DNA of 53,284 nucleotides from Ruditapes philippinarum (lineage: Eukaryota). This document shows, piece after piece, positions 3,001 through 53,284 of the stretch (within the stretch, counting starts at the first letter, position 1; each line of letters begins with the position of its first letter). Position numbers and translations under genes: made by a program. The notes below the pieces were generated by a model. It made no database searches and had not been told where the DNA came from. It saw only the letters and a list, made by a program, of their open reading frames with translations. The stretch lies in the NCBI RefSeq assembly GCF_026571515.1, contig NW_026860139.1, forward strand, positions 124,001 through 177,284, written 5' to 3'.

Positions 3001-6000
3001 TAAACTTTAAATGGACTGCTCCAAATTCAAAGCTGGGTAAATTCGTAAGATCCTAGCACAAATTTAGCAGGTTAAGGATACATGTAAAATGTTGACCCTG
3101 ACTTTATAATTGACCCATTTTATAGGCAATACAACACACAATTTCAATATCCACATATCAGTATTACATAAATATTTCAAAGGGGAGAGGTGGCCTAGTG
3201 CATGTAGTGATTAAGGTGTCTGCCTCTCAACCCAGGGATTATGGTTTCGAGCCCTAAACAAGTCATAACAATGTTTCTTCATATTACACCAGTACTGGTT
3301 GGTTCCAGGAAGCAAATTCAAAAGTAATTAATATAAGTTGCAAGAAATTGTTTCACAGTCGAGCTTAGATAAATCTGTTAAACCGTATTTCAGAGGATGT
3401 ATACAACAGTTTCTATGTCAGAACATATCAACTAACCTTCTGTGATAAGAATAAGGGTAAGTTCAGGAAGACTGGAACCATTCTCATTCTCGGTTGATAC
3501 TACAACATCATATTTGGTTCCAGGCTCTAAATTTGTAATCTTGTATGTAGTTCCAAACTTTATTTCTGCCTGAAATATTATAAATAAAGATATAGTGATA
3601 CATTTTATTTCTTACTAAATGATGATACTCAAAAATAATATATCCGAACATATCTAATCTGCATTAAAACAAGAATTCCAGCCTTATTAATGTCAATACT
3701 GCAATCTATGACCACAAAGAGTAAGAAACAAGATGCCAAGTCTCTCACTTTTAAATGCTAGAAGCATCAAGAATGAAAGTCACTTGTTTCACTTATGGTA
3801 CAAAATGGTGGTGGTGGTGCTTGTAGTTTTCACTCCAAATCACAGCAGTAAGCCACAATGAATTTACCAGAGCACAGTTCAGCCACAGCATTTTTCCTGG
3901 GCAGGCTGTCAAGCAGTTTACCAGTACTATTTGTCTTAACTTTCGCAAGGAACTGATAACTTCTGTACATGCCAAAGCAGAAGAAAAGTGTAAATGACCG
4001 TAAAAAGGATTTCATGATCAATCACAATGAAAGTGACCTACACTGCCTGGGAATCAATCCCAGATAGCCTGATTCACAATCCAAAGCTCTACCTAATGAG
4101 ATAGTCAGACAGTTAGGTACAAAATGTGAGTCCTGACATTTCACCTTCTTAGCTATTGCTATAACACTGCTATCTAGGTTGCAGTTAAATAAAAATGAGT
4201 AATTCCAAATTTTATTTTACTTTTAAAAGACTATCCCGAGAATGCTAAAAAAACAGCTGTCACTGTTATTTAGACCAACAGCCTTTAAAATTACGAGTTT
4301 CAACATTAAGACAGGAGACAGACCTGGTATTGATGTAAATACATGACTCTAACTATATTACATGAAAGAAAATGCCTGTCTAGAGATTAAACTATAACTT
4401 CAACAAAAAAACTACTAACGAAACAAAACTTACACTTTTCCATTCATTAAAAATATCCTTGTCTTTTTTCCATGAGACTAAATATTCATCTCCAGATTTA
4501 AAGTTTCCTGGAGCTTCCCAGGCAACAACAGCAGACGTGTCAGTTACAGTTTCAGCAAGTATGCGGGTATTCTGTGGCGGGTCTGGCATCATAACTGAAA
4601 TATAAAAATATAAATCACAAGACCTGCTATACTGTAACGTGCTAGAACTGAAAGTGATAATTCTACAGTATGACCAAGCTATATGCCCTTTTGCAGATCA
4701 AATTTTGTATTTTATAAATAAAAATCCCTAAATATTCAAATGGATTGTTCCAAATTCAAAACAGGGGGCAAGTTCATTACACAAATTCAGGAGGTGAATG
4801 ATCAACAAGCTAAAGTTAAACAGCATCCTCATGAGAAAATACAAGGTATAGATCTTTACTTTTAAAATAGCAATTATAACATCCCCGGTCTGCCTTTTTG
4901 AGGGTAACTCCCAATATGATATTATATGCCTAAAATGAGATAAAATTCTCACTAATTCTTCCATCTTCATGACAAGAGGGCCATGATGGCTCTGAGGTCG
5001 CTCACCTGTATATAGGCCCCCGGAGCGGGGCCAGTTTAAACCCCAGGGCTTTTATTTGAGCAAACTTGGAAGACACCCATTACAAGATGTTTCATGATGT
5101 TAAGTTTTTACTACACACATATAATGAAAAACAATGACCTCCCCCCCCCCCTTTGGCACGGCCAATTTAAACCCAAGGGCTTTTATTTGGACAAACTTGG
5201 TAGACACCAACAAAAAGATGTTTCCTGCTTAAAATCTAACCTCTAGCTCATTGGGTTTTTTAAAAGAAGATTTTTTAAGTTTTTACTATACACATATAGT
5301 TAAAAACAATGACATCTCTGGGGCGGGGCCAGTTTTAACTCCAGGGCTTTTATTTGAACAAACTTTGTAGACACTTACTAGAAGATGTTTCATGCTTAAT
5401 ATCTAAACTCTAGCTATATGGGTTTTTCAAAGAAGATTTTTTAAGTTTTTTGCTATACACATGTAAGGAAAATCAATGACCCCCGGGGCGGGGCCAATTT
5501 TGACCCCAGGGCTTTTATTTGAACAAAGTTGGTAGACACCCATTAGAACATGTTTCATGCTAAATATCTTAGCTCTAGCTCTTTGGGTTCTTTAAAAGAA
5601 GATTTTTTAAGTTTCTACTATATGCATATAGGGAAAATCAATGACCCCCTGGGACGGGGCCAATTTTAACCCCAGGGCTTTTATTTGAACAAACTTAGTA
5701 GACACTCACTAGAAGATGTTTCATGCCAAATATCTAAGCTCTAGCTATTTGGGATTTTTTAAAGAAGATATTTAAAGTTTTTTCTTTTGGTTGCCATGGC
5801 AACCAGAGTTCTGCATGGAATTAAATTCTTTGAACAATTTTTAAAGGTGACCACCAACGGAACATTCCTGTGAAGTTTGGATGAAATTGGCTTAGTGGTT
5901 TATGAGGAGATGTCATTTAAAGTAAAAGTTTAGGGATGGACGACGGACAGACGCCGGACGGACGCCGGATGAAAAGCGATCACAAAAGCTAAAAACTGAT

Positions 6001-15000: not shown

Positions 15001-18000
15001 AATTTTAAAAAAGATATGCCAATCATCTAGTTTACAAAACTGAATAAAAAATTTTGCTTATTGTAAAATTTAAGAAAGCAGTGGCCTATAAAGGTTAAGA
15101 AGTTTGCTCTACAACCAAAGGATTGTGGGCCTAAGCCTTATTGGGGTCACATAACCTTGGTTCTTTATAGGAAACCAGTATTGGTTTATTCTATATAACA
15201 GTAAGCTACTGTCGTTTGGTGAAGCTGACACTAGAAATGGTTCAATAATGCTTTAAGCTTTCATTACAGACAAACTAAAAATGTGTATGTTTAACATATG
15301 ATTATAATGTTCTCTGTTGTAATTATCATACGAACTTGCAATCAGCAGATGGTGAATCACTTTCACAGAATCTGCAGCACCATCAACATAACATTTGTAT
15401 GTACCAGCATCTGTCATTAACACTGGATATATTTGCAAGTTCCAGTATCCCCCTCCATCTGAAATAATATAATTGAGCCGCGTCATGACAAAACCAACAT
15501 AGTGGGTTTGCAACCAGCATGGATCAAGACCAGCCTGCGCATCCACGCAGTCTGATAAGGATCCATGCTGTTCGCTATCAGTTTCTCTACTTGTTATAGA
15601 GTTTGTAAGCGAACATTTTGGATCCTGATCAGACTGCGCGGATGCCAGTTCAGCCTTCAGCTTTTCTAAAGGTTAAATAATTATGTTATTATTACATAAA
15701 TGGTTTCATATAATTGTCTAATCAAAATGAGGTGGAAAATGAAATTTGCCATAGATAAAATAGATAAACAATAAGGAAAACTTTCGAAACCTCTAATCTA
15801 GTGGTCTGCTCTCTATATGTAAATTAGTAAAGTTGACAATTGGTTAGAAACAAAAGTCACAGACACATAATAAATAGCTCTTGGGACGTTGTGTTGAATA
15901 AGACTTAACAGTCACAGATATGATACAATTTCCAAGACATAATTACTGAAATACTTAGTTTGAAACAACAAAGAATTGTTCAGCCAAAAAATTAAAACAT
16001 AAACATTTTATTATGATGAAAATATATAAATAATTAAAATTCTAAAATTATGACAGTAAAGTTAAAATGTTTACCTTGAGGTCCATATATTGAATATTTG
16101 TTCTCATAGTTCTCAGCATGTATCACAGATCCTTTAGATATAGTTATATTGTGGTCAATAAAATCCCATTTTACCTACAAAAACAACAATAAAACTAGAA
16201 CATAGTGCTTGTGATAATTATGGAGTAAATAGGAGTCAGACAAGAGCTGTCCGTAAGACAGCGCGCTCGACTTTTTTATTGCTTGCCAATAAAAAAAGTT
16301 TTTGCAGTAAAAGGCAATACAAGAATCTATGTGTTCTGTCCGTAGCTGGTCACTTGTCCACCAATCAAATAGGCGAGATAAAATGTGAAATATGCATATA
16401 CTACTGATTTTAATTTCAAGTACAAAAAGAGAAAAATAACTAGTTGTTTGATACCCTTGAATATTACAGCAATGTTTATATGACATAATTTATGGTAAAG
16501 TGAACAAGTGGATAGGAATGAATTTTTTTAGATTTTTTAAGTTTTTTAGTGCTTGCCTATAATACAAAACATTGACAGTTAAGGGCCATAATTCAAATAA
16601 AATCTTTGACAGAATTACCTTCTCCTGGACATGTTTGGGAATCATGATTGTGATAGTAAACAAGTATTCCAACTTTCAAATTAATATCTCAAACAGTTCA
16701 GTCAAAAAGTGGACTGGTACTAAAAACTTAACCAAGATTCTAAGTCGATAAAAGGCCTTAATTTTTTAAAAACAAATCCTTGACAGAGTTACCTTCTCTT
16801 GCGTACAGATGGGGTAATGATGTGAAATAGCATTAAAAGTTTCAAAGCAATATCTCAAAGGGTTAAGGCAATAAGTGGATTTTACCCATATTCAATGTAT
16901 TTTCTAAGTCAAAAAAGGGGCATAATTCTGTCAAAAACCTTGACAGAGTTATGTCCTCTTGTCTGTTGATGAAGGTCGTGATGGTAAACAAGTATGGTCA
17001 GTTTCAAAGCAATACCTCCAATGGTTTTGAAATAAAGTGAGGTGGTACAAAAAACTTAACCAAGCTCAATACACTTTCTAAGTCAAAAAAGGGCCATAAT
17101 TCTGTCAAAAACCTTGACAGAGTTATGTACTCTTGTCTGTAGATGGAGGTTATGATGGTGAACAAGTATGGTAAGTTTCAAAGCCATACTTGTAATACTT
17201 CTGAAATAAAGTGGGGTGGTACGAAAAACTTAACCAAGGTGTGACGCCAACGCCGACGCCGACGCCGGGGCGAGTAGGATAGCTCCCCTTTTCATAAAAA
17301 AGTCGAGCTAATAAAAATAACCCAAGGATGATGTTTATCTTTTCATATTGAAGTTTTACTTTACTCTGAAGCTATGGAATTGAACATTGCACAAAAATAA
17401 CTGTATCATAAATTCTGAACACAGTGATTGCTATTCATTGACTATGATAAAGATTAAAGGAAAAACATTCTTTTAATATAGGATATAAATGAATGTGAGG
17501 ACCGTAACCTCAAGTTTAAAGTTGCACGTTGCATATAGGCTGATATAGAAAAAATTAACTCTACCAATAAGATATTTATAATTAATCAATTGAAAATAAA
17601 AAACTTCTGTATTAATAAATAATTGACACAAAAATCACTGAATTTTACAACTTACAGTTTGTGAAGGTTGAAGATTTTTAACTTTGCACTCAAATTGGGC
17701 CACTTTACCAACTTCAATCTTTATTGTCTGGGATGTTGTTTCTATTGTCTGGCCGAAAACTGCAACAACAACCATTAAATAATTATCATTAAAATGCTTG
17801 CAAGGATAGTAAATCTAAGCCACTAGCAACTGTTCATACATACAGCCTTACCAGATGTTTAATTTACTTTTATTTATATTTAGATACTAAGAAATCCCTG
17901 AAACAGCTCAATGGACTGTAACCAAATTCAAACTAGTCCATTTCTAAAATTCAGCAATTATAAGGATGAAAAAGATCATGTGATTTTAATTGGTACATAT

Positions 18001-26500: not shown

Positions 26501-26652
26501 GGCACTTTTTCTATTATTTTTTGTTTAAAGATATTTTTCAACTAAATGGATTTTGGTATTTTAACTTGTGAATAATTATTTCATTCACACACTGCTATTG
26601 AAAACATTCAGTTTTACACATATTCAAGAATAGTATTTTTCGAATTACAGAA

Positions 26653-27225
26653 ATGTTACAGAGTATTAATTTTGAAGACCAGATTTATTTTAACACAAAT
26701 CAAGTGAATACTAAAGTAATTGTAACAAAAATTAAGGAAAAAATTTTTGATGTAGAAGTTAATAAATGGAAACAATCATTAGAGTGTGTGTCATCTATAT
26801 CAGGAAATGGTAGAAATAAGCTAAGAACATATAAAATGTTCAAGAATGTTTTTGAAACTGAAACTTATGTAAAAGAACATTTGCCTTTTCATTATCGAAG
26901 AGCTATGGCATTATTTAGATGCGGTGTTGCACCGATAAGATTGGAAACGGGGAGGTATGAAAATCTGTCAATACATGAAAGAACTTGTTTTAACTGTACT
27001 GATACTGTAGAAGATGAGATACATGTTATGTTACACTGTCCACTCTATTTACAATTCAGGGAAGACCTATTTGAATCTGCGAGAACAATTGTTAATAATT
27101 TTGACAACTTATCTGATGTGGAGAAAATGCATAACGTTTTTGTTAATCCATTTTTGACTAAGTTTACAGCCAAAGCATGCTTTAATATTTTAAAACATAG
27201 ACGTCTTTTACTTTATTGTAGGTAA
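26653..27225 (+). mobile_element. 5'-truncated non-LTR retrotransposon (LINE) ORF2 C-terminal fragment, CR1/L2-group-like
   Basis: 190-aa ORF with KLRTYKMFK..ETYV, RRAMALFRCGVAPIRLETGRY and a CxxC..EDExH..HC zinc-binding motif (CFNCTDTVEDEIHVMLHCPLY) typical of the post-RT region of invertebrate LINEs; no RT core present. Confidence 0.85.
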
Positions 27226-40200: not shown

Positions 40201-43200
40201 AAAATCAAAGGGTAAGTCTTCATTAATCTTAATTTGCATTAATTATTCAAAGTGTCAACAATGTCACTTATTGTCTCTCACCGCTGATTCAGAAATTATG
40301 TGTGGGATTAGTAGTCAGTCACTTGCAGAAATTGGTAATCCGGAAAGCCAGTTAGATATGACAAAAAATGATCAGGCTTAAGAAATAGACATATTGTACT
40401 GAAAGTAAATATATTTTAAAAATACATTATATATACATGTACTGTGAAAAACCAGTAACTTAATTTATGTGATTTCATTTGATTTAGATGCCAGCAAGTC
40501 ACCTCCTCCAGTTTTGTTAGAGTGTTTTGTAGACTGGATCTCAGCTGATTCTTGTTTGTGTTCAGACTCTGTAAGACTTGTGCGTATCCAGTCAACATTT
40601 ACCTGTCCAATCGGTGGACTGGTACGCTGGTGCATTCTTGGACCTCTTGTGACAAATAGTATTGATGCAGACACAAAAACTTCAGAAATAGTAAAAAGTG
40701 AAAGACCTAGTGCTTCAAAGACAGGGAAATTCTCTTCTGAGAAATTGCAGAGTTTATTTTCAAGGTTACACCTTGCAGTGCTTCAAAGCTTACAAGCTTA
40801 TAAAAGTATGGGACTCCAAGAGCAACTTTTGACATTTACAGATCTATTTATAGTGTCAAAGACACTAGCAGTATTTTATAAAGGTGGACAATGCACAGAG
40901 CAGTTATTGTCTGTTGTAAATATTTCCACAGACAGACTTTCTCAAATTATACAGGTTGCGTTGACTACCAACAGTCTTTCAGGTAATATCATGCTGTAAT
41001 TCTATTTTATATCATATTTAACAAGCTTCTATGGTTGGAGATCAAATTGTTGAATTTTGCATAAATTAGGTTAAATCACTTTGTTATTTATGTAATGATT
41101 TGATTCATACTTGGACAAAACAACTCATATGACAAAACCTTTGAAAAGATTTGAAAAGGCAACATACATGTATATGATAAAACCAAAATGCAGAATGATT
41201 TAAATATGATATTGACCTTAAAATGACCCTGACCATGAAGGTAGGATTATATAATTTGTCAAAATCGTCATTACTTCTTCTGCATAAATTGACACTAAAG
41301 ACAACATTAGTATATTAGATACAATTCATGTATGACCGTGGAAACAAACTTTTGATTAAACTTTGTGCAGAGAAATGATCTTTTTTGAAAACCCATCACG
41401 TCAATATTCATATTCGGAAATGTTTATTTATAAGTTTTAGCTTGATGATAAAAGCATATTTAGTGTTTACCTTTATAAGCCTTCATGGTCAAGTGGTTTA
41501 GTGTTAACTTCTAACCAGTTGCCCCTTTCTTCTGAGGATTAATATATTACATAGAGGTCTTCCTCCATCAGTAAGTCACCTTATGTCACCATATGACCAT
41601 AGCTATGTTATGTGAAACTAAAAAAAAATGCCAATGGCTACAATGTTGATAATTAACTAGCTGATAAATTTCATCAATTATTTCAGAAAAGTTTGACATA
41701 CGCCAAGTGTGTGAAGGACTACCACAGAACAGGTATATATCCAACCATTAAGATATGATAAATATTAGATCTTACACAAATTGAATTTTCATGTAGAATT
41801 AAGTTATGTTTAACAAGTCTTGGTAAGTGTTATTTAGCATGGCTTTTTAACCTTGACCTTGCTGGCAACAACCGAATCAACCAATTAAGCAGTCCAGACC
41901 AAGATCAGCCTGTACACCTTTGCTATCTGATCATGGTCTGCGCTGTTCTCTATTCAGTCAGCACATATTTTTAATTTTCCCCAAAAATTTATGTTTTATC
42001 CAGATAAAGAGATGAACAACTCAATTTTTTAGCTCAATTATTGAAGAATAGGGAGAGCTATTGTACTCATCCAGGCATTGTGTGTCAATGTTAGCATTAG
42101 TGTCTCACTTTGATTAAGTTATTGTGTGCAAGTTGGTATCTCAAAAACTACTGAAGGGAATGGGTTGAAGGGTTGAAATGTCATACACTTATATGAGAGC
42201 ATAATAGGAGGTCACTAAGGCCAATAACTGACATGCATTATGACTGACAGAATTTTGACCCCTTTTGAACTCAATTTTTTTTACAGTATCCAGGCTCTTG
42301 GCTGAGAATACTGCCCTTCCAAAATCACTTGTAGATATTTAATACTGGGTTAATTTGTTAAGGGTTTATACTGTCTGTATGTAAGAAATGACAATCAATG
42401 TAGGTTTTTGTGTCGCCTCTACGGAGTAGTGGCGACATATAGGGATCACTTCTCCGTCGTCTGTCTGTCCGTCTGTCCGTCACAAAACTTGTCCGGACTA
42501 CTCCTCATAAACTACTGGTGCAATTTCATCCAAACTTTACAGGAATGATCAGTATCAAGTCTAGTTGTGCATATTGTCAGCATTTTCCGGTTCAATGATT
42601 TTTGGCAGAGTTATGGCCCTTTAATAATTTTTAATTTTAAAGTTTGTCCGGACTACTTCTCTTATACCACTAAAGCAATTTCAATGAAACTTTACAGGAT
42701 TGATCTGTAGCTCAAGTCCTTGCGCATATTGCAAGGGTTTTCCGGTTGAATGATTTTTGGCCGAGTTATGGCCCTTTGATAAAAAAGGTGTATTTTTCTG
42801 TGTGTTGCCAGATACACAAAACTTGTCCGGACTACTCCTCATAAACTACTGGTGCAATTTCATCCAAACTTTACAGGAATGATCAGTACCAAGGGTAGTT
42901 GTGCATATTGTCAGCATTTTCCGGTTCAATGATTTTTGGCAGAGTTATGGCCCTTTAATAATTTTTAATTTTAAAGTTTGTCCGGACTACTTCTCTTATA
43001 CCACTAAAGCAATTTCAATGAAACTTTACAGGATTGATCTGTAGCTCAAGTCCTTGCGCATATTGCAAGGGTTTTCCGGTTGAATGATTTTTGGCCGAGT
43101 TATGGCCCTTTGATAAAAAAGGTGTATTTTTCTGTGTGTTGCCAGATACACAAAAGCTTGTCCGGACTACTCCTCATAAACTACTGGTGCAATTTCATCT

Positions 43201-44468: not shown

Positions 44469-44875
44469 ATAGTCAGATAGGTTGTTGCTCATATCCTTTG
44501 CATCAATAATGTAATGTGCGATACTTTCATGCCTTCACTAAAAAAGCGCCAGATCATATACTGCGACAGGGTGGTATGTCCATATATATTTAAGTCGCGT
44601 TTACCTTATTTGGTTAATGTACTGAAAAGGTTAAAGCCATGGTCTATATACATTGTTTCCACATTGTTTCAAACTTCGAATACACAGCTTTAAGTAATCT
44701 GTTCTTATCTCTAATGAAGACCAACACCATCTATTTTTTCGTATTTTATTCATAATATTGTAATCAAATAACACATCGTAGCATTTAATGACCAAACAGT
44801 CTCTTTGAAACATTTGAAAGTGAATTGTGTTTTTCTTTTAACTATCTTTTACTAAATGTTGTGTTCTTTCATTAA

Positions 44876-45669: not shown

Positions 45670-46612
45670 TTAAATGACCACTTGTCAATAGATTTCGTAT
45701 TTTGCAACACCGGTTCTTTATTGAGAGGTTATCCAGTATGTAGTCCTTAAACAGCCTAATTGTAATAGTTGAATATATTTCTATATTATTTTGTTTCCAT
45801 CTTTTCATATTTGAAAAAAAATGTGTGATCTTTACAATATCACTATGTTTACGAAGACTGGCCTTTATTGACAGGTTATACAGTATGTCATAATAATAGA
45901 GGTTTCTTCACAGCCATCTGATAGTTAAATTTAATGTATAGTTTTTATGCATTATCTGTTAATTTTTTAATCTTGTCTTATTATTAAATGTCAATAAAGG
46001 CCATATTTATATTTCCTAAAGAATGGTTTTTACTGAGAGGTTTTACAGTATAGCACGATGACCCCTTAAACAGTCTCAATAAAACATTTAAAAGTGAATT
46101 ATGTTTTTCTTTGACTGAATGTTATGTTCTTTCATTAAATGACCACTTGTCAATATATTTTGTATTTTGCAAGACCGGTCTTTATTGAGAGGTTATGCTG
46201 TATGTCATTCTTAAACAGATTCATTGTAGCATTTAAATATACTTTAATATACATTATGTTTGTTTTCATCTTTTCTTATTTGAAAAATGTGTGCTCTTTA
46301 CATTATCACTTGCCAATACAGTCCATGTTTACCAAGACAGGTTATACAGTATGTCATAATATAAGAGGTTTCTTCAAAGCTATCGCATAAGTTCATATCT
46401 GTTTCAAACTAAATCGTTACACACTTTTGATATTTCTATTACACAGCTTAGCATTCTTAATTCTAATAAAGACCAACACCATCTATTTTTTTGTATTTTA
46501 TTCATAATATTGTAATCAAATAACACATTTTAGCACAGCAGTAACAACAAGTTTACACAACAACAAAATAATGTATGAAAAGCACTAAAAAGGCACATTG
46601 TATTCTGTATTA

Positions 46613-47466
46613 TCAATCACATCTGGACAACTCACAAACCACGCTGGTCCACACTCCGGCAGCCCTATCTTGGAACGTTTGCCCACTTGTTGCTGATGAT
46701 GAAGTGTTAATATTCATCTGTACATTATCGTCTGCTTCTAAACTGGACTTGATCGCTGATGCTGTCTTTTGTACCTGAAATGATTAACAATTGAATATAA
46801 AATGATTTATTCGAACGGTGAGATGATGAGGCTTTTATGTAATGCAGTTTTACATAACTATCTAATGTTATTTTTAAATAGGCAAAATATAATTAAGTTT
46901 GTACTGATAATTCGATCTGAAATTTATTAATAGTTGAATATGAACATATATGAAATCTGCTAACGAAAAACGACAAACGTAAGTACTACAGGTATAGTTC
47001 TTTCGAATACTTTAAGCGTTATATCTGTTTAACATACCTCAGTCCATTTTCTGCTGGAATACTGCTTGTACATGTGACACACTCCTTCGTTGACAGACAA
47101 ACGGAGAAGTAGACGAAGATGATGAGACTGTTTATCTTCTATGACTGACATCATACTCTGCTGGTCCACATTGGCTATAGCATTCTCTGAAAAAAAGAAT
47201 AAGAATAGAGTTTGAGAGCTGTTCTGCATTTATATGTAATGTAGTATATGCAATATTTAGCTTAATGTACAAGATGAAAATGAATATTTGTAGTTTCTTT
47301 CATTATTAATTCTAACAATTTTTAACTTCAGAACGCTTTATAATGATAAGAGCTTCATGTAAATGTAATGAGTATTGTTCTTACCAAGTTGTGATACAGT
47401 CATATCACTGTTGTGAAGAACCACCAACTTGTTGCGAAGACAACACGCTGCTGAGATAATGTCCAT
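46613..47466 (-). CDS. Uncharacterised 130-aa protein, 3 exons, copy 1
   Basis: Exons 47385-47466 (82 nt, donor gtaag), 47038-47186 (149 nt, ttttttcag / gtatgt) and 46613-46774 (162 nt, tttcag .. TGA) join in frame: MDIISAACCLRNKLVVLHNSDMTVSQLENAIANVDQQSMMSVIEDKQSHHLRLLLRLSVNEGVCHMYKQYSSRKWTEVQKTASAIKSSLEADDNVQMNINTSSSATSGQTFQDRAAGVWTSVVCELSRCD. The exons are GC-richer than their flanks; AATAAA on the minus strand at 46497-46502. Confidence 0.75.
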
Positions 47467-50028
47467 GCTGATTTATTTGTAGGCAGATGAAGTCTATTAT
47501 ATATTATAAGACTATGAATTTTGTGTATTAAGGTAATGACCTGGCTTGGTGTAATTTTGCTCAGTGTATATTTTATGAGGTAAAAGGTTTTATGGCTTGG
47601 GTCTTGTGCCGTCTGGATATTTATACTGCAATGGTCCATTGTTTTACAGTTTGCATTTTAATTGTTTCGTTAATTTACTTTAATAAGTTGAACACTGCTT
47701 ATTGCAGAGAGATATTTTTCTTTTGATCACATGTACATAAAAGGAAGATCAAACAAAGTTAATGGCCATTTAAAATCAATCATCATTTAATTGTTTGATA
47801 ATTGGATTTTTATTAATAATAATTAAAGGCTTTAATTGCGTATTTCTAATTAATTAGTTAATCAGCAAAGTAATTAGTCGAATTAAAACGATTACCAAAA
47901 ATGATTGCTTAATTCAAATTTAAAATTATACTGAAAACATATTCGTTGTTACTGCGTTTTGTTGCTTAAGTTTATCTGCATTTATTGTGAACTCTTACTT
48001 TACAACCGGAACATAAATATTGTAAAATATTATTTTGTAAACCCCTAATGTATTTTATTAATACCTGGGTGAATAAAGATATTTGAATTGAAGAATATTA
48101 TGAATAACAATATATATTATAAATGCCAGTATTTCGAACAGTAGAACGAATTATAGTCCTCGGAAGACAATTTGTCAATAGAATCCATAATAATATTTCC
48201 TAAAAAATCGTTTTTATTGACAGGCTTTTACAGTACAGCTTGCTTAACGGGGGACGTCTTAAAACAGTTTCATTGAACTATTTGAATGTGAATTATATAT
48301 CTTTTAACTATTATTTTAATGAGTGTTGTGTTCTTTCCTTGTATGACCAGTTTTCAATAGATAGGCCTTTATTGAGAGGTTATACACTATGTTATGCCCG
48401 ATGAAGCAGTCTTTAAACAGCGTAGTCGTAGCATTTAATGACCACTTGTTAATAAAGACCATATTTATATTTCCTAAAGAATGGTTTTTAATGAGAGGTT
48501 TTACAGTAAAGCACGATCACAGTCTCTTTGAAACATTTAAAAGTGAATTGTGTTTTTCTTTTAACTATCTTTTACTAAATGTTGTGTTCTTTTATTAAAT
48601 GACCACTTGTCAATAGATTTCGTATTTCGCAAAACCGGTCTTTATTGAGAGGTTATCCAGTATGTAATCCTTAAACAGCGTAATTTTAACAGTTGAATAT
48701 ATTTTAACATTATGTTTGTTTTTATCTTTTCATATTTGAAAAAAATGTGTGCTCTTTACATTATCACCATGTTTACAAAGACTGGCCTTTATTGACAGGT
48801 TATACAGTATGTCATAATAATTGAGGTTTCTTCACAGCCATCTTATGGTTATATTTAATGTACAGTATGTATGCTTTAACTTCTTATGTTTGAATCTTGT
48901 CTTTTTATTAAATGACCACTTGTCAATAAAGGCCATATTTATATTTCCTATAGAATGGTCTTTACTAAGAGGTTTTATAGTAAAGTGCGATGACGGAGGA
49001 CTCCTTAAAACAGTCTCTTTGAAACATTTGAAAGTGAATTGTGTTTTTCTTTTAACTATCTTTTACTGAATGTTGTGTTCTTTCATTAAATGACCACTTG
49101 TCAATAGATTTCGTATTTTGCAACACCGGTTCTTTATTGAGAGGTTATCCAGTATGTAGTCCTTAAACAGCCTAATTGTAATAGTTGAATATATTTCTAT
49201 ATTATTTTGTTTCCATCTTTTCATATTTGAAAAAAAATGTGTGATCTTTACAATATCACTATGTTTACGAAGACTGGCCTTTATTGACAGGTTATACAGT
49301 ATGTCATAATAATAGAGGTTTCTTCACAGCCATCTGATAGTTAAATTTAATGTATAGTATTTATGCATTATCTGTTAATTTTTTAATCTTGTCTTATTAT
49401 TAAATGTCAATAAAGGCCATATTTATATTTCCTAAAGAATGGTTTTTACTGAGAGGTTTTACAGTATAGCACGATGACCCCTTAAACAGTCTCAATAAAA
49501 CATTTAAAAGTGAATTATGTTTTTCTTTGACTGAATGTTATGTTCTTTCATTAAATGACCACTTGTCAATATATTTTGTATTTTGCAAGACCGGTCTTTA
49601 TTGAGAGGTTATGCTGTATGTCATTCTTAAACAGATTCATTGTAGCATTTAAATATACTTTAATATACATTATGTTTGTTTTCATCTTTTCTTATTTGAA
49701 AAATGTGTGCTCTTTACATTATCACTTGCCAATACAGTCCATGTTTACCAAGACAGGTTATACAGTATGTCATAATATAAGAGGTTTCTTCAAAGCTATC
49801 GCATAAGTTCATATCTGTTTCAAACTAAATCGTTACACACTTTTGATATTTCTATTACACAGCTTAGCATTCTTAATTCTAATAAAGACCAACACCATCT
49901 ATTTTTTTGTATTTTATTCATAATATTGTAATCAAATAACACATTTTAGCACAGCAGTAACAACAAGTTTACACAACAACAAAATAATATATGAAAAGCA
50001 CTAAAAAGGCACATTGTATTCTGTATTA

Positions 50029-50882
50029 TCAATCACATCTGGACAACTCACAAACCACGCTGGTCCACACTCCGGCAGCCCTATCTTGGAACGTTTGCCC
50101 ACTTGTTGCTGATGATGAAGTGTTAATATTCATCTGTACATTATCGTCTGCTTCTAAACTGGACTTGATCGCTGATGCTGTCTTTTGTACCTGAAATGAT
50201 TAACAATTGAATATAAAATGATTTATTCGAACGGTGAAATGATGAGGCTTTTATGTAATGCAGTTTTACATAACTATCTAATGTTATTTTTAAATAGGCA
50301 AAATATAATTAAGTTAGTACTGATAATTCGATCTGAAATTTATTAATAGTTGAATATGAACATATATGAAATCTGCTAACGAAAAACGACAAACGTAAGT
50401 ACTACAGGTATAGTTCTTTCGAATACTTTAAGCGTTATATCTGTTTAACATACCTCAGTCCATTTTCTGCTGGAATACTGCTTGTACATGTGACACACTC
50501 CTTCGTTGACAGACAAACGGAGAAGTAGACGAAGATGATGAGACTGTTTATCTTCTATGACTGACATCATACTCTGCTGGTCCACATTGGCTATAGCATT
50601 CTCTGAAAAAAAGAATAAGAATAGAGTTTGAGAGCTGTTCTGCATTTATATGTAATGTAGTATATGCAATATTTAGCTTAATGTACAAGATGAAAATGAA
50701 TATTTGTAGTTTCTTTCATTATTAATTCTAACAATTTTTAACTTCAGAACGCTTTATAATGATAAGAGCTACATGTAAATGTAATGAGTATTGTTCTTAC
50801 CAAGTTGTGATACAGTCATATCACTGTTGTGAAGAGCCACCAACTTGTTGCGAAGAAAACACGCTGCTGAGATAATGTCCAT
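50029..50882 (-). CDS. Uncharacterised 130-aa protein, 3 exons, copy 2 (C9F and V16A relative to copy 1)
   Basis: Exons 50801-50882, 50454-50602 and 50029-50190, offset 3416 bp from copy 1; splice sites and frame intact. Confidence 0.75.
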
Positions 50883-51894
50883 GCTGATTTATTTGTAGGC
50901 AGATGAAGTCTATTATATATTATAAGACTATGAATTTTGTGTATTAAGGTAATGACCTGGCTTGGTATAATTTTGCTCAGTGTATATTTTATGAGGTAAA
51001 AGGTTTTATGGCTTGGGTCTTGTGCCGTCTGGATATTTATACTGCAATGGTCCATTGTTTTACAGTTTGCATTTTAATTGTTTCGTTAATTTACTTTAAT
51101 AAGTTGAACACTGCTTATTGCAGAGAGATATTTTTCTTTTGATCACATGTACATAAAAGGAAGATCAAACAAAGTTAATGGCCATTTAAAATCAATCATC
51201 ATTTAATTGTTTGATAATTGGATTTTTATTAATAATAATTAAAGGCTTTAATTGCGTATTTCTAATTAATTAGTTAATCAGCAAAGTAATTAGTCGAATT
51301 AAAACGATTACCAAAAATGATTGCTTAATTCAAATTTAAAATTATACTGAAAACATATTCGTTGTTACTGCGTTTTGTTGCTTAAGTTTATCTGCATTTA
51401 TTGTGAACTCTTACTTTACAACCGGAACATAAATATTGTAAAATATTATTTTGTAAACCCCTTATGTATTTTATTAATACCTGGGTGAATAAAGATATCT
51501 GAATTGAAGAATATTATGAATAACTAAATGCCAGTATTTCGAACAGTAGAACGAATTATAGTCTTCGGAAGACAATTTGTCAATAGAATCCATAATTATA
51601 TTTCCTAAAAAATCGTTTTTATTGACAGGCTTTTACAGTACAGCTTGCTTAACGGGGGACGTCTTATAACAGTTTCATTGAACTATTTGAATGTGAATTA
51701 TATATCTTTTAACTATTATTTTAATGAGTGTTGTATTCTTTCCTTGTATGACCAGTTTTCAATAGATAGGCCTTTATTGAGAGGTTATACACTATGTTAT
51801 GCCTGATGAAGCAGTCTTTAAACAGCGTAGTCGTTAGCATTTAATGACCACTTGTTAATAAAGACCATATTTATATTTCCTAAAGAATGGTTTT

Positions 51895-53284
51895 TTTCAA
51901 AAAAGTTTTTTAACCCTTTTTTTAAAATTTTTTTAAATTTTTTATAAAAATTTTTTTAAAAAAATATTTTTTAAAAATTTTTTTTAATTTTAAAATTTTT
52001 TAAAAAAAAGTTTTCCCCCAAAAAAATTTTTTTTAAAATTTTATTTTTTTTTTAATTTTTTTTTTATTAATAAAAACCAAAATTTTTTTTAAAAGGTTTT
52101 CTTTTTAAAAAATTAAAAAATTTTTTTTTAAATTTAAAAATTTTTTAATTTTTTTTATTTTTTATTTAAAAAACCTTTTTAATTTTAAATTTTAAAAGAA
52201 GGGTTTTCTTTTAAAAAATTTAAAGTTTTTTTAAAAATTTTAATTTAATTTTTTTTTTCAAATTTTTTTTGAATTTCTTTTAATTCATTTTCCCCCAAAA
52301 ACCCCTTTTTTTTTTTAAATATTTATAAAATTAAATTTTTTAAAAATAACCAAATTTTTTTAAAAAAAAAGGGAAAAAAATTTTTAAAATTTGATTTTTA
52401 AAATAGGGGCCCCCATTTTTAAACCCCAATTTTTCCATTTTTTGGGTAAAAAATTTAAAAAAATTTTGAAATAAAGGCCTTTTATTTCTTTTTTAAAAAA
52501 ACCTTTTTTTTTTTTTTAAAGAAAAAATTACTTTTTTGGGTTTTTAAAATTTTTTTAAAAAAAAAAAATTTTTAAAGGAATTGATTGATTTTTTTTTGAA
52601 TTTAAAAAAATTGAAAAAAAAACCCGGAATTAAAATTTTTTTTGGGTCTTTAAATTTTTTTTTTAAATTTTTTCTTAAACTGGGTTTTGAAATTTTTTTT
52701 TAAAACCAAAGAAACGGGGAAAAAAATTTTTCAATTTGTTTACTTTTTTTAAAATTTTTAAAACTTTTTTTTTTGGGAAAATTTGTAATAAATTTTTTTA
52801 AAAACAAATAAAAAAATTGGTTTTTTTCCAAAAAAAAAACCCTTTTACTTGGAAGCTTTTTAAAAAAAGTAAAAATAAAAATTTTTCTTATAAATTTTTT
52901 AAATGGAAAAATTGTTGACAAAAAAATTTGGGGTTTATTTTTTTTATTTTCTAATTTTAAAATTGGTAATTTTTTAAAAAAAATTTTTTTTTTTGGGCCC
53001 CTTTTATTTTGGAACAATTTTTTGGGGCCCAAATTTAATTTTGGATTTTTTCAAATTTATTTAATTTTTTAAAAACTTTTTTAAAAAAATGTTTTAAATT
53101 TTTTCCTTTTTAAAAGTAAAAAAAGGGGGGGGGCCCCTTTTTAAAAATTGAAATTATTTTTTAATTTTTAAATTTTTTTTAAATTTATTTAATAAAAAAT
53201 TTTTTTTTTTAAAATTTCTTTATAATTTAAAAAAAAAATAAATTTTTACTTTTTTTTGTTTTAAAATTTTTTTTTAAAAATTTT
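51895..53284. other. Probable low-quality / miscalled terminal sequence
   Basis: Abrupt switch from a well-aligned duplication to almost pure A/T/G/C homopolymer runs. Confidence 0.85.

What the first reader, a model, noticed from the sequence alone, without database searches (positions are those of the whole stretch)
46613..50882. Tandemly duplicated 3-exon orphan gene (130 aa) missed by the ORF track
Seen: two intact copies with canonical splice sites and compatible phases (1, 0), a TATA-like tatataa ~30 nt before the ATG and AATAAA ~110 nt after the stop. The only coding differences I found are both non-synonymous and both in exon 1 (C9F, V16A). Inference: a small, probably helical protein with no signal peptide. 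The segment LRLLLRLSVNEGVCHMYKQYSSRKWTEV resembles an 'LRL..EGVR.MY..YA..K..E' motif I recall from uncharacterised mollusc proteins (unverified). This may be a lineage-restricted family undergoing copy-number change next to the conserved gene INTS15.
Basis: partly seen in the sequence, partly recalled or inferred. Interest (0 to 1): 0.7.

Follow-up and report, generated by a model that had tools for sequence, protein, structure and literature searches.

The report
Spliced cousin of histone-ended clam genes
This is a real, spliced clam gene, repeated in tandem, for a small protein predicted to fold as a two-helix hairpin; it is likely the intron-bearing, poly(A)-type branch of an unnamed mollusc family whose intronless members carry histone-style message ends, and a conserved promoter palindrome suggests it would be switched on by Wnt signalling.

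Summary
Observation confirmed: two intact three-exon copies (130 aa) in a 3,416-bp unit, 99% identical; the assembly holds six, with a 5.2-kb junk stretch inside the array. RefSeq already models them as uncharacterised Ruditapes philippinarum proteins. Assembled contigs skip both introns; dN/dS against paralogues is 0.22-0.29. The gene is no orphan: at least 16 loci in this genome, relatives in Mercenaria and Dreissena. AlphaFold predicts a helical hairpin plus a tail helix; no Pfam, PDB, viral or transposon family matches. The scan has noted such stem-loop families on other genomes; the link to a spliced, polyadenylated branch was not in the notes seen. The short spliced genes of two species share an inverted TCF/LEF-like site pair (7-bp spacer) upstream, degenerate in the window copies. 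Best reading: a small intracellular adaptor, the 'variant-type' branch of that family. The partner is unknown; Wnt control is inferred. The two amino-acid differences are singletons, not selection.

The parts
47385..47466 (-). Copy A exon 1 (82 nt, ATG at 47466, phase-1 intron follows); most of helix 1
   Evidence: intron-1 joint in contig of run X7
47038..47186 (-). Copy A exon 2 (149 nt); hairpin turn and conserved R-x-S-V-x-E-G-V-x-x-M-Y-x-x-Y-x-x-x-K-W motif
46613..46774 (-). Copy A exon 3 (162 nt): end of helix 2, disordered linker, tail helix with conserved D..W..CE..R
   Evidence: intron-2 joint in X5, X7, X10, X14
50801..50882 (-). Copy B exon 1 (protein identical to RefSeq LOC132759012)
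50454..50602 (-). Copy B exon 2
50029..50190 (-). Copy B exon 3
47721..47743 (-). Copy A promoter palindrome, TCF/LEF-like half-sites with 7-bp spacer (degenerate here), about 277 nt before the ATG
51137..51159 (-). Copy B promoter palindrome
47497..47508 (-). TATA-like run of copy A (copy B 50913-50924)
   Evidence: sequence; function not tested
46497..46502 (-). AATAAA of copy A (copy B 49913-49918)
   Evidence: sequence; use not shown
45670..49085 (.). One full 3,416-bp repeat unit (gene plus 470-490-bp satellite-like sub-repeats); the second unit runs 49086-51895 and is cut by junk
   Evidence: head-to-tail joint in 34 reads of X22
51896..53284 (.). Start of a 5.2-kb homopolymer junk stretch inside the array (assembly artefact)
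40448..40996 (+). INTS15 exon, neighbouring conserved gene

Best explanation
The two copies are real, spliced genes under purifying selection for a 130-residue protein predicted to fold as a two-helix hairpin with a tail helix; it is likely the intron-bearing, poly(A)-type branch of a larger unnamed mollusc family whose intronless members carry histone-type 3' ends, and it likely works inside the cell as a small protein-binding adaptor whose gene would be switched on through a conserved pair of TCF/LEF-like promoter sites. Steps. Shown: gene structure, splicing in assembled contigs, purifying selection, paralogues, stem-loops on the intronless relatives, promoter footprint in two species. Strongly inferred: common ancestry with the intronless family (about 0.85). 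Inferred: the conserved face of helix 2 binds a partner helix, likely a nuclear protein (about 0.5); the two branches divide labour as replication-dependent and variant histones do, short-lived cycle-coupled messages against signal-driven polyadenylated ones (about 0.35); the palindrome binds TCF (about 0.5 for the paralogues with near-perfect sites, about 0.3 for the degenerate window copies). The tandem array is likely a young product of unequal crossing-over between satellite sub-repeats and need not be adaptive.
For: Splicing: contigs skip intron 2 exactly in 4 of 8 runs laid and intron 1 in 1 of 8. Selection: dN/dS 0.22-0.29 against four intact paralogues. Intron 1 sits at the same phase-1 position in distant paralogues and in 7 genes of an unnamed host. 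Fold: helices 3-43 and 47-99 at pLDDT about 90, tail helix 111-127; same hairpin in the 352-aa paralogue. Conserved residues of helix 2 spread over more than one face. Family link: the motif pattern gives 19 intronless genes, control 0; HHalign 93.9%, E 1.6e-7, 65 ungapped columns; our profile scores them 23-38 bits against at most 7.9 for unrelated frames among 3,177; shuffles that keep the motif reach the score in 0 of 200 for each of 10 proteins. Rfam Histone3 lies 3' of 11 of 19, 2 above the curated cut-off, with the same purine-rich downstream element as this genome's histone genes. SIM-like acidic tails in 6 of 10 intronless proteins, none in ours. Promoter: TTTGATS-N7-GATCARA in 4 of 5 close paralogues and 5 of 7 genes of the second host although dS is 1.4-2.5; 3 of 11 genome-wide matches lie at family genes, control 7; half-sites fit SCTTTGWWSWW (PMC4154663, passages); the genome has a LEF1-like gene.
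Against: No partner, localisation or expression pattern is shown. With the motif masked the cross-family score drops to -1 to 9 bits, so the link leans on one helix, and coiled-coil bias may help it. The window palindrome has 3 mismatches to the consensus (1 of 150 shuffles as good) and is absent from one close and three distant paralogues; the consensus was chosen after both species had been seen. The spliced runs are only guessed to be RNA; only one joint (X7, intron 2) has 31 or more letters on both sides; the two raw-read RNA runs gave no spliced read (X22 looks like DNA, X24 does not cover the exons). The protein has no SIM-like motif, acidic tail or K[KR].[KR] signal, so a nuclear role is borrowed from relatives. 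That the intronless relatives are folded alike or processed by SLBP/U7 was not tested.
Confidence: 0.45

Rival explanations
1. The protein is a microProtein-like competitor: the bare hairpin and tail helix bind the same partner as the 320-440-aa paralogue, which has a long Q/P/S-rich and acidic middle, and so dampen it.
For: Long forms keep the hairpin and the tail motif with about 230 extra disordered residues; linker length varies from about 15 to over 230 residues; microProteins act this way (PMC9638782, PMC4807768; listing and abstract openings only).
Against: No shared partner or co-expression shown; the long form's activity is unknown; the intronless branch is also short, so short may be ancestral.
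Confidence: 0.15
2. The likeness to the intronless family is convergence of amphipathic helices; the gene belongs only to a small heterodont-clam family, and the palindrome binds another factor or nothing.
For: Identity to the intronless proteins is low outside one motif; masked scores are weak; named relatives come only from Ruditapes, Mercenaria and Dreissena.
Against: Ungapped register over 65 columns; reversed sequences score at most 3.2 bits; motif-kept shuffles never reach the score.
Confidence: 0.15
3. The gene is real but the array is partly an assembly artefact or a neutral copy-number variant; true copy number may be lower than six.
For: 5.2 kb of homopolymer junk inside the array; copies 96.6-99.1% alike, with one synonymous change, three amino-acid changes and one frameshift; an error-ridden duplicate of the gene on contig C6218.
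Against: The head-to-tail joint stands in 34 reads from 31 starts in another sample; copies carry private intron substitutions. This rival is compatible with the best explanation of the protein.
Confidence: 0.4
4. The ORF is a transposon or virus gene.
For: Multi-copy, dispersed and tandem; flanked by repeats.
Against: Conserved spliceosomal introns; no Pfam transposon family over cut-off; 0 of 43 viral and 0 of 5 prokaryote candidate stretches confirmed; no BFVD match at E 0.001; dispersed copies share only gene and promoter.
Confidence: 0.03

Closest known systems
RefSeq uncharacterised proteins LOC132759011/012/013/016 (R. philippinarum), LOC123557613, LOC128557504, LOC123562900, LOC123532286 (Mercenaria), LOC127872810 and DPMN_083424 (Dreissena)
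   Same: The same proteins or 55-68% identical short relatives; long forms about 28-30%.
   Different: No function or family name; six of these ids were searched and occur in 0 papers of the library.
Intronless two-helix mollusc family with histone-type 3' ends (19 genes here; similar families in scan notes e1-7908630, e1-7908482, e1-10637367)
   Same: Same hairpin-length domain and helix-2 motif in ungapped register; tandem clusters.
   Different: Window gene has two introns, AATAAA and no Rfam stem-loop, lacks the acidic SIM-like tail, adds a tail helix and a promoter palindrome. Whether the noted families are the same one could not be checked (empty).
Replication-dependent versus variant histone genes (H3.1 against H3.3, H2A.Z)
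   Same: One family split into intronless stem-loop genes and intron-bearing polyadenylated genes (PMC13525598, passages).
   Different: Not a histone; analogy of gene design only; cell-cycle coupling untested.
ESCRT-III/PspA/Vipp1 hairpin, ING N-terminal domain, prefoldin, p85 iSH2
   Same: Antiparallel helical hairpin (Z 9.9-11.7; Foldseek E 0.1 or worse).
   Different: At most 17% identity, scores within the range common for long helices; no Pfam match; lacks their other parts.
Direct Wnt/TCF target genes
   Same: Conserved high-affinity-like TCF sites near the promoter.
   Different: Inverted pair with fixed 7-bp spacer; degenerate in the window; no binding or induction data.

Membership tests
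Expressed protein-coding gene | Intact frame with canonical splice sites | tested here: met
   five of six copies intact
Expressed protein-coding gene | Spliced transcripts | tested here: met
   contig joints at both introns; runs only guessed to be RNA; one joint with 153 letters on the short side
Expressed protein-coding gene | Purifying selection | tested here: met
   dN/dS 0.22-0.29, dS 1.2-1.7
Two-helix EGVRNMYYEYA superfamily (protein) | Profile similarity beyond the searched motif, in register | tested here: met
Two-helix EGVRNMYYEYA superfamily (protein) | Same fold in both branches | not tested
   both folding jobs went to the spliced branch
Intronless stem-loop branch | No intron | tested here: not met
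   two introns
Intronless stem-loop branch | Histone stem-loop and downstream element after the stop | tested here: not met
   no Histone3 hit; an 11-of-12 partial match 22 nt after the stop cannot pair fully and is reached by 29 of 5,170 background windows
Intronless stem-loop branch | Acidic, SIM-like tail | tested here: not met
Direct TCF/LEF target | Conserved SCTTTGWWSWW-like sites near the promoter | tested here: inconclusive
   met in paralogues of two species, degenerate in the window copies
Direct TCF/LEF target | TCF binding and Wnt-dependent expression | not testable with these tools
   needs ChIP, reporter or drug test
ESCRT-III/PspA or ING | Sequence family match (Snf7, PspA, ING) | tested here: not met
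   no such family among Pfam hits at E up to 1 for 14 members; PDB profile searches gave nothing under E 0.5
ESCRT-III/PspA or ING | Specific structural match | tested here: inconclusive
   generic hairpin matches only
Transposon or viral protein | Family match or occurrence in viral contigs | tested here: not met
microProtein | Binds and blocks a larger relative or its partner | not testable with these tools
   only the architecture fits

The most novel reading that the evidence does not exclude
Molluscs run an undescribed nuclear protein family the way animals run histones: an intronless branch that uses the SLBP/U7 histone 3'-end pathway and is tied to S phase or cleavage, and a spliced, polyadenylated 'variant' branch, this gene, that has been rewired to Wnt/TCF through a fixed inverted site pair and amplified again and again in separate clam lineages.
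Probability: 0.2. Interest if true: 0.85.

Novelty: new variant of a known kind. Interest (0 to 1): 0.52.

Why it matters
Alone, a young tandem array of an uncharacterised gene is ordinary. It matters through its family. Stem-loop ends are treated as the mark of replication-dependent histone messages; a non-histone family with both stem-loop and spliced poly(A) branches would be a second, natural test of why genes move between the two processing routes. The promoter footprint gives an unnamed bivalve gene a testable regulator, in animals where my searches found no paper on TCF-site-bearing lineage-specific Wnt targets.

Tried and rejected
Pfam on exons, members and long forms: nothing over cut-off. 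PDB sequence profiles: nothing meaningful; BAP31 at E 0.005 for the intronless profile is a plain coiled-coil match. ESM Atlas: no usable hit, twice. Foldseek PDB and viral: 0 matches at E 0.001. Homodimer job: no answer, neither support nor evidence against. No RNA holder was listed as RNA on record. Two of 13 hits (P0012, P0015) are repeat proteins without the motif and were dropped; P0019 (internal repeat) and P0011 were left out of later alignments. The frameshifted C15185 copy was left out of the dN/dS range. The C6218 '85% paralogue' is an error-ridden read-like copy, not a gene. Exon 1 of the two C8434 copies was not found. Vestigial stem-loop in the window 3' UTR: too weak to claim. 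The tail helix does not fit the recalled beta-catenin-binding D-x-h-h-x-aromatic pattern (by eye). Positive selection on C9F/V16A: rejected as singletons. No palindrome printed for the 19 intronless loci. Literature searches found no paper on this family; supplements were not searched and gene ids could sit in expression tables there.

Full report
1. Observation. The finding is as described: two minus-strand three-exon genes, 82/149/162 nt, introns 198 and 263 nt with GT..AG ends, each giving 130 residues, differing at codons 9 and 16. They sit in a 3,416-bp unit, 99.0% identical, that also holds 470-490-bp satellite-like sub-repeats. The window is G000:C8626:124001-177284. The contig carries six copies; between the second and third lies 5.2 kb of homopolymer junk that begins at window 51896. 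One outside copy has a 1-nt deletion in exon 1; among the six there are one synonymous and three amino-acid singletons. Identical proteins are RefSeq LOC132759012, 013 and 016 of Ruditapes philippinarum. The neighbour is INTS15.

2. It is a working gene. Of 8 runs laid (out of 24 listed), contigs of X5, X7, X10 and X14 skip intron 2 exactly and X7 skips intron 1. Limits: these runs are only guessed to be RNA; all joints but one have 25-29 letters on the short side; raw-read run X22 covers introns like exons and shows no spliced read, and X24 does not cover the gene. X22 does hold the head-to-tail joint in 34 reads, which supports a tandem arrangement in another sample. Against four intact paralogues dN/dS is 0.22-0.29 at dS 1.2-1.7.

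3. It is not an orphan. This genome has at least 16 loci: six in the array, five at about 55-60% identity with the same three exons (one frameshifted), two on C8434, and three distant two-exon genes of 134, 161 and 353 aa. Databases add Mercenaria and Dreissena proteins and unnamed records (4 of 11 candidates; 13 hits among 1.84 billion, two of them spurious; 5 of 7,990 scored). An unnamed animal in JGI metagenomes gave 8 loci, 7 with both exons, an independent recent expansion (8 of 26 stretches). Intron 1 keeps its phase-1 position throughout. The window gene groups with Mercenaria LOC123557613/LOC128557504. Long forms insert about 230 Q/P/S-rich and acidic residues between the same N-terminal domain and the same tail motif.

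4. Shape. AlphaFold on 22 sequences gives helices 3-43 and 47-99 (pLDDT about 90), disorder at 97-110 and a weaker helix 111-127; pTM 0.58. The long form gives the same hairpin. Fold searches return only generic hairpins. No hydrophobic leader or membrane segment is seen. Conserved residues R56, S58, V59, E61, G62, M66, Y67, Y70, K74, W75, V78 fall on more than one face of helix 2; I infer that one face closes the hairpin and the other binds a third helix, from the tail or a partner.

5. The larger family. They are intronless frames of about 110-195 aa. Their profile aligns to ours without a gap over 65 columns (93.9%, E 1.6e-7). Because the pattern shares letters with our motif, I ran controls: motif-kept shuffles never reach the score (0 of 200, ten proteins), reversed sequences give at most 3.2 bits, masked ones -1 to 9; unrelated frames reach 7.9 bits against 23-38. 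Eleven of the 19 loci have an Rfam Histone3 match just 3' of the gene, two above the curated score, followed by the purine-rich element also seen after this genome's H3 and H1 genes (named from recall of the printed sequences). Six of ten have a SIM-like acidic tail (pattern from recall). The window gene has introns and AATAAA and no such match. That split mirrors replication-dependent and variant histone genes (PMC13525598, passages). I saw the stem-loops before reading the scan's notes; three notes on other genomes describe what sounds like the same intronless family, none mentions a spliced branch, and a look-up by sequence was empty.

6. Promoter. About 180-280 nt before the ATG the short spliced genes share TTTGATS-N7-GATCARA, with a variable spacer of fixed length and a second small block 20 nt on. 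It is in 4 of 5 close paralogues (one displaced by an insertion) and 5 of 7 genes of the second host (one truncated, one with another upstream), though synonymous sites between the species are near saturation. Genome-wide the strict pattern has 11 matches, control 7, three at family genes. Half-sites fit the TCF consensus SCTTTGWWSWW (PMC4154663, passages) and a LEF1-like gene is present. In all six array copies the element is degenerate (3 mismatches); the three distant paralogues lack it. TCF control is therefore an inference, weaker for the window copies.

7. Mechanism and rivals. I commit to a small intracellular adaptor, the signal-driven poly(A) branch of a family whose other branch uses histone-type ends (0.45 for the whole). 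Rivals: competitor of the long paralogue, convergent likeness, inflated or neutral array, mobile-element gene; see the fields above.

8. Verdict. Real and annotated but undescribed in the searches run (supplements not searched). The array is ordinary; the family link and promoter footprint make it worth following. New variant of a known kind; interest 0.52.

Noticed in passing
G000 C524, C589, C691, C1425, C1829, C2352, C2745; e.g. L153:1558-2082(-), L150:1885-2364(+), L149:1537-1911(-): A repeated cassette of three non-histone intronless genes, each followed by a histone-type stem-loop and downstream element. 78 stem-loop matches genome-wide (control 5); of 30 read, 2 follow histones, 5 the two-helix family, 11 these cassette genes, 12 gave no frame. 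No Pfam family over cut-off; one has a SIM-like VIIID motif. Possibly a mobile or amplified unit.
   Followed up: partly
L107-L125 (C3649, C9516, C8792, C4506, C6736, C13742, C13759) and L148: Intronless two-helix genes with stem-loops; several on C3649 also have AATAAA just before the stem-loop, and most share a further TATTGTCA-like block after the downstream element.
   Followed up: partly
L126:6054-6452 (C9516, about 108 kb): The LEF1-like HMG-box gene lies about 60 kb from the five-gene intronless cluster; may be chance.
   Followed up: no
3' UTRs of the spliced genes, window 46585-46581 and paralogues: GTGCT recurs within 100 nt of the stop in five separate clades; background 168 of 3,618 windows. 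Possible miRNA or RNA-binding-protein site; found post hoc.
   Followed up: partly
window 44657-44875: An 83% remnant of the gene's 3' end joined to a satellite piece; contigs at higher depth in several runs end here, perhaps the 3' end of another transcript.
   Followed up: no
window 48043-48385: A contig of run X1 skips 341 nt with minus-strand GT..AG ends upstream of the promoter: possible upstream or read-through spliced transcript.
   Followed up: no
L024:3945-4271(+) and 4818-5724(-): The 161-aa distant paralogue lies on the opposite strand beside an exon that looks like BRF1 (recalled, not tested), probably nested in its intron; it and the long forms share an acidic M[DE]W motif.
   Followed up: no
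window 15253-15672(-) and 26602-27225(+): An Ig-like-looking exon and a LINE-like C-terminal frame (both by recall); no Pfam hit at E 0.01.
   Followed up: no
L082 (C6218): An unpolished, error-ridden duplicate of the gene; the assembly holds read-like contigs.
   Followed up: yes
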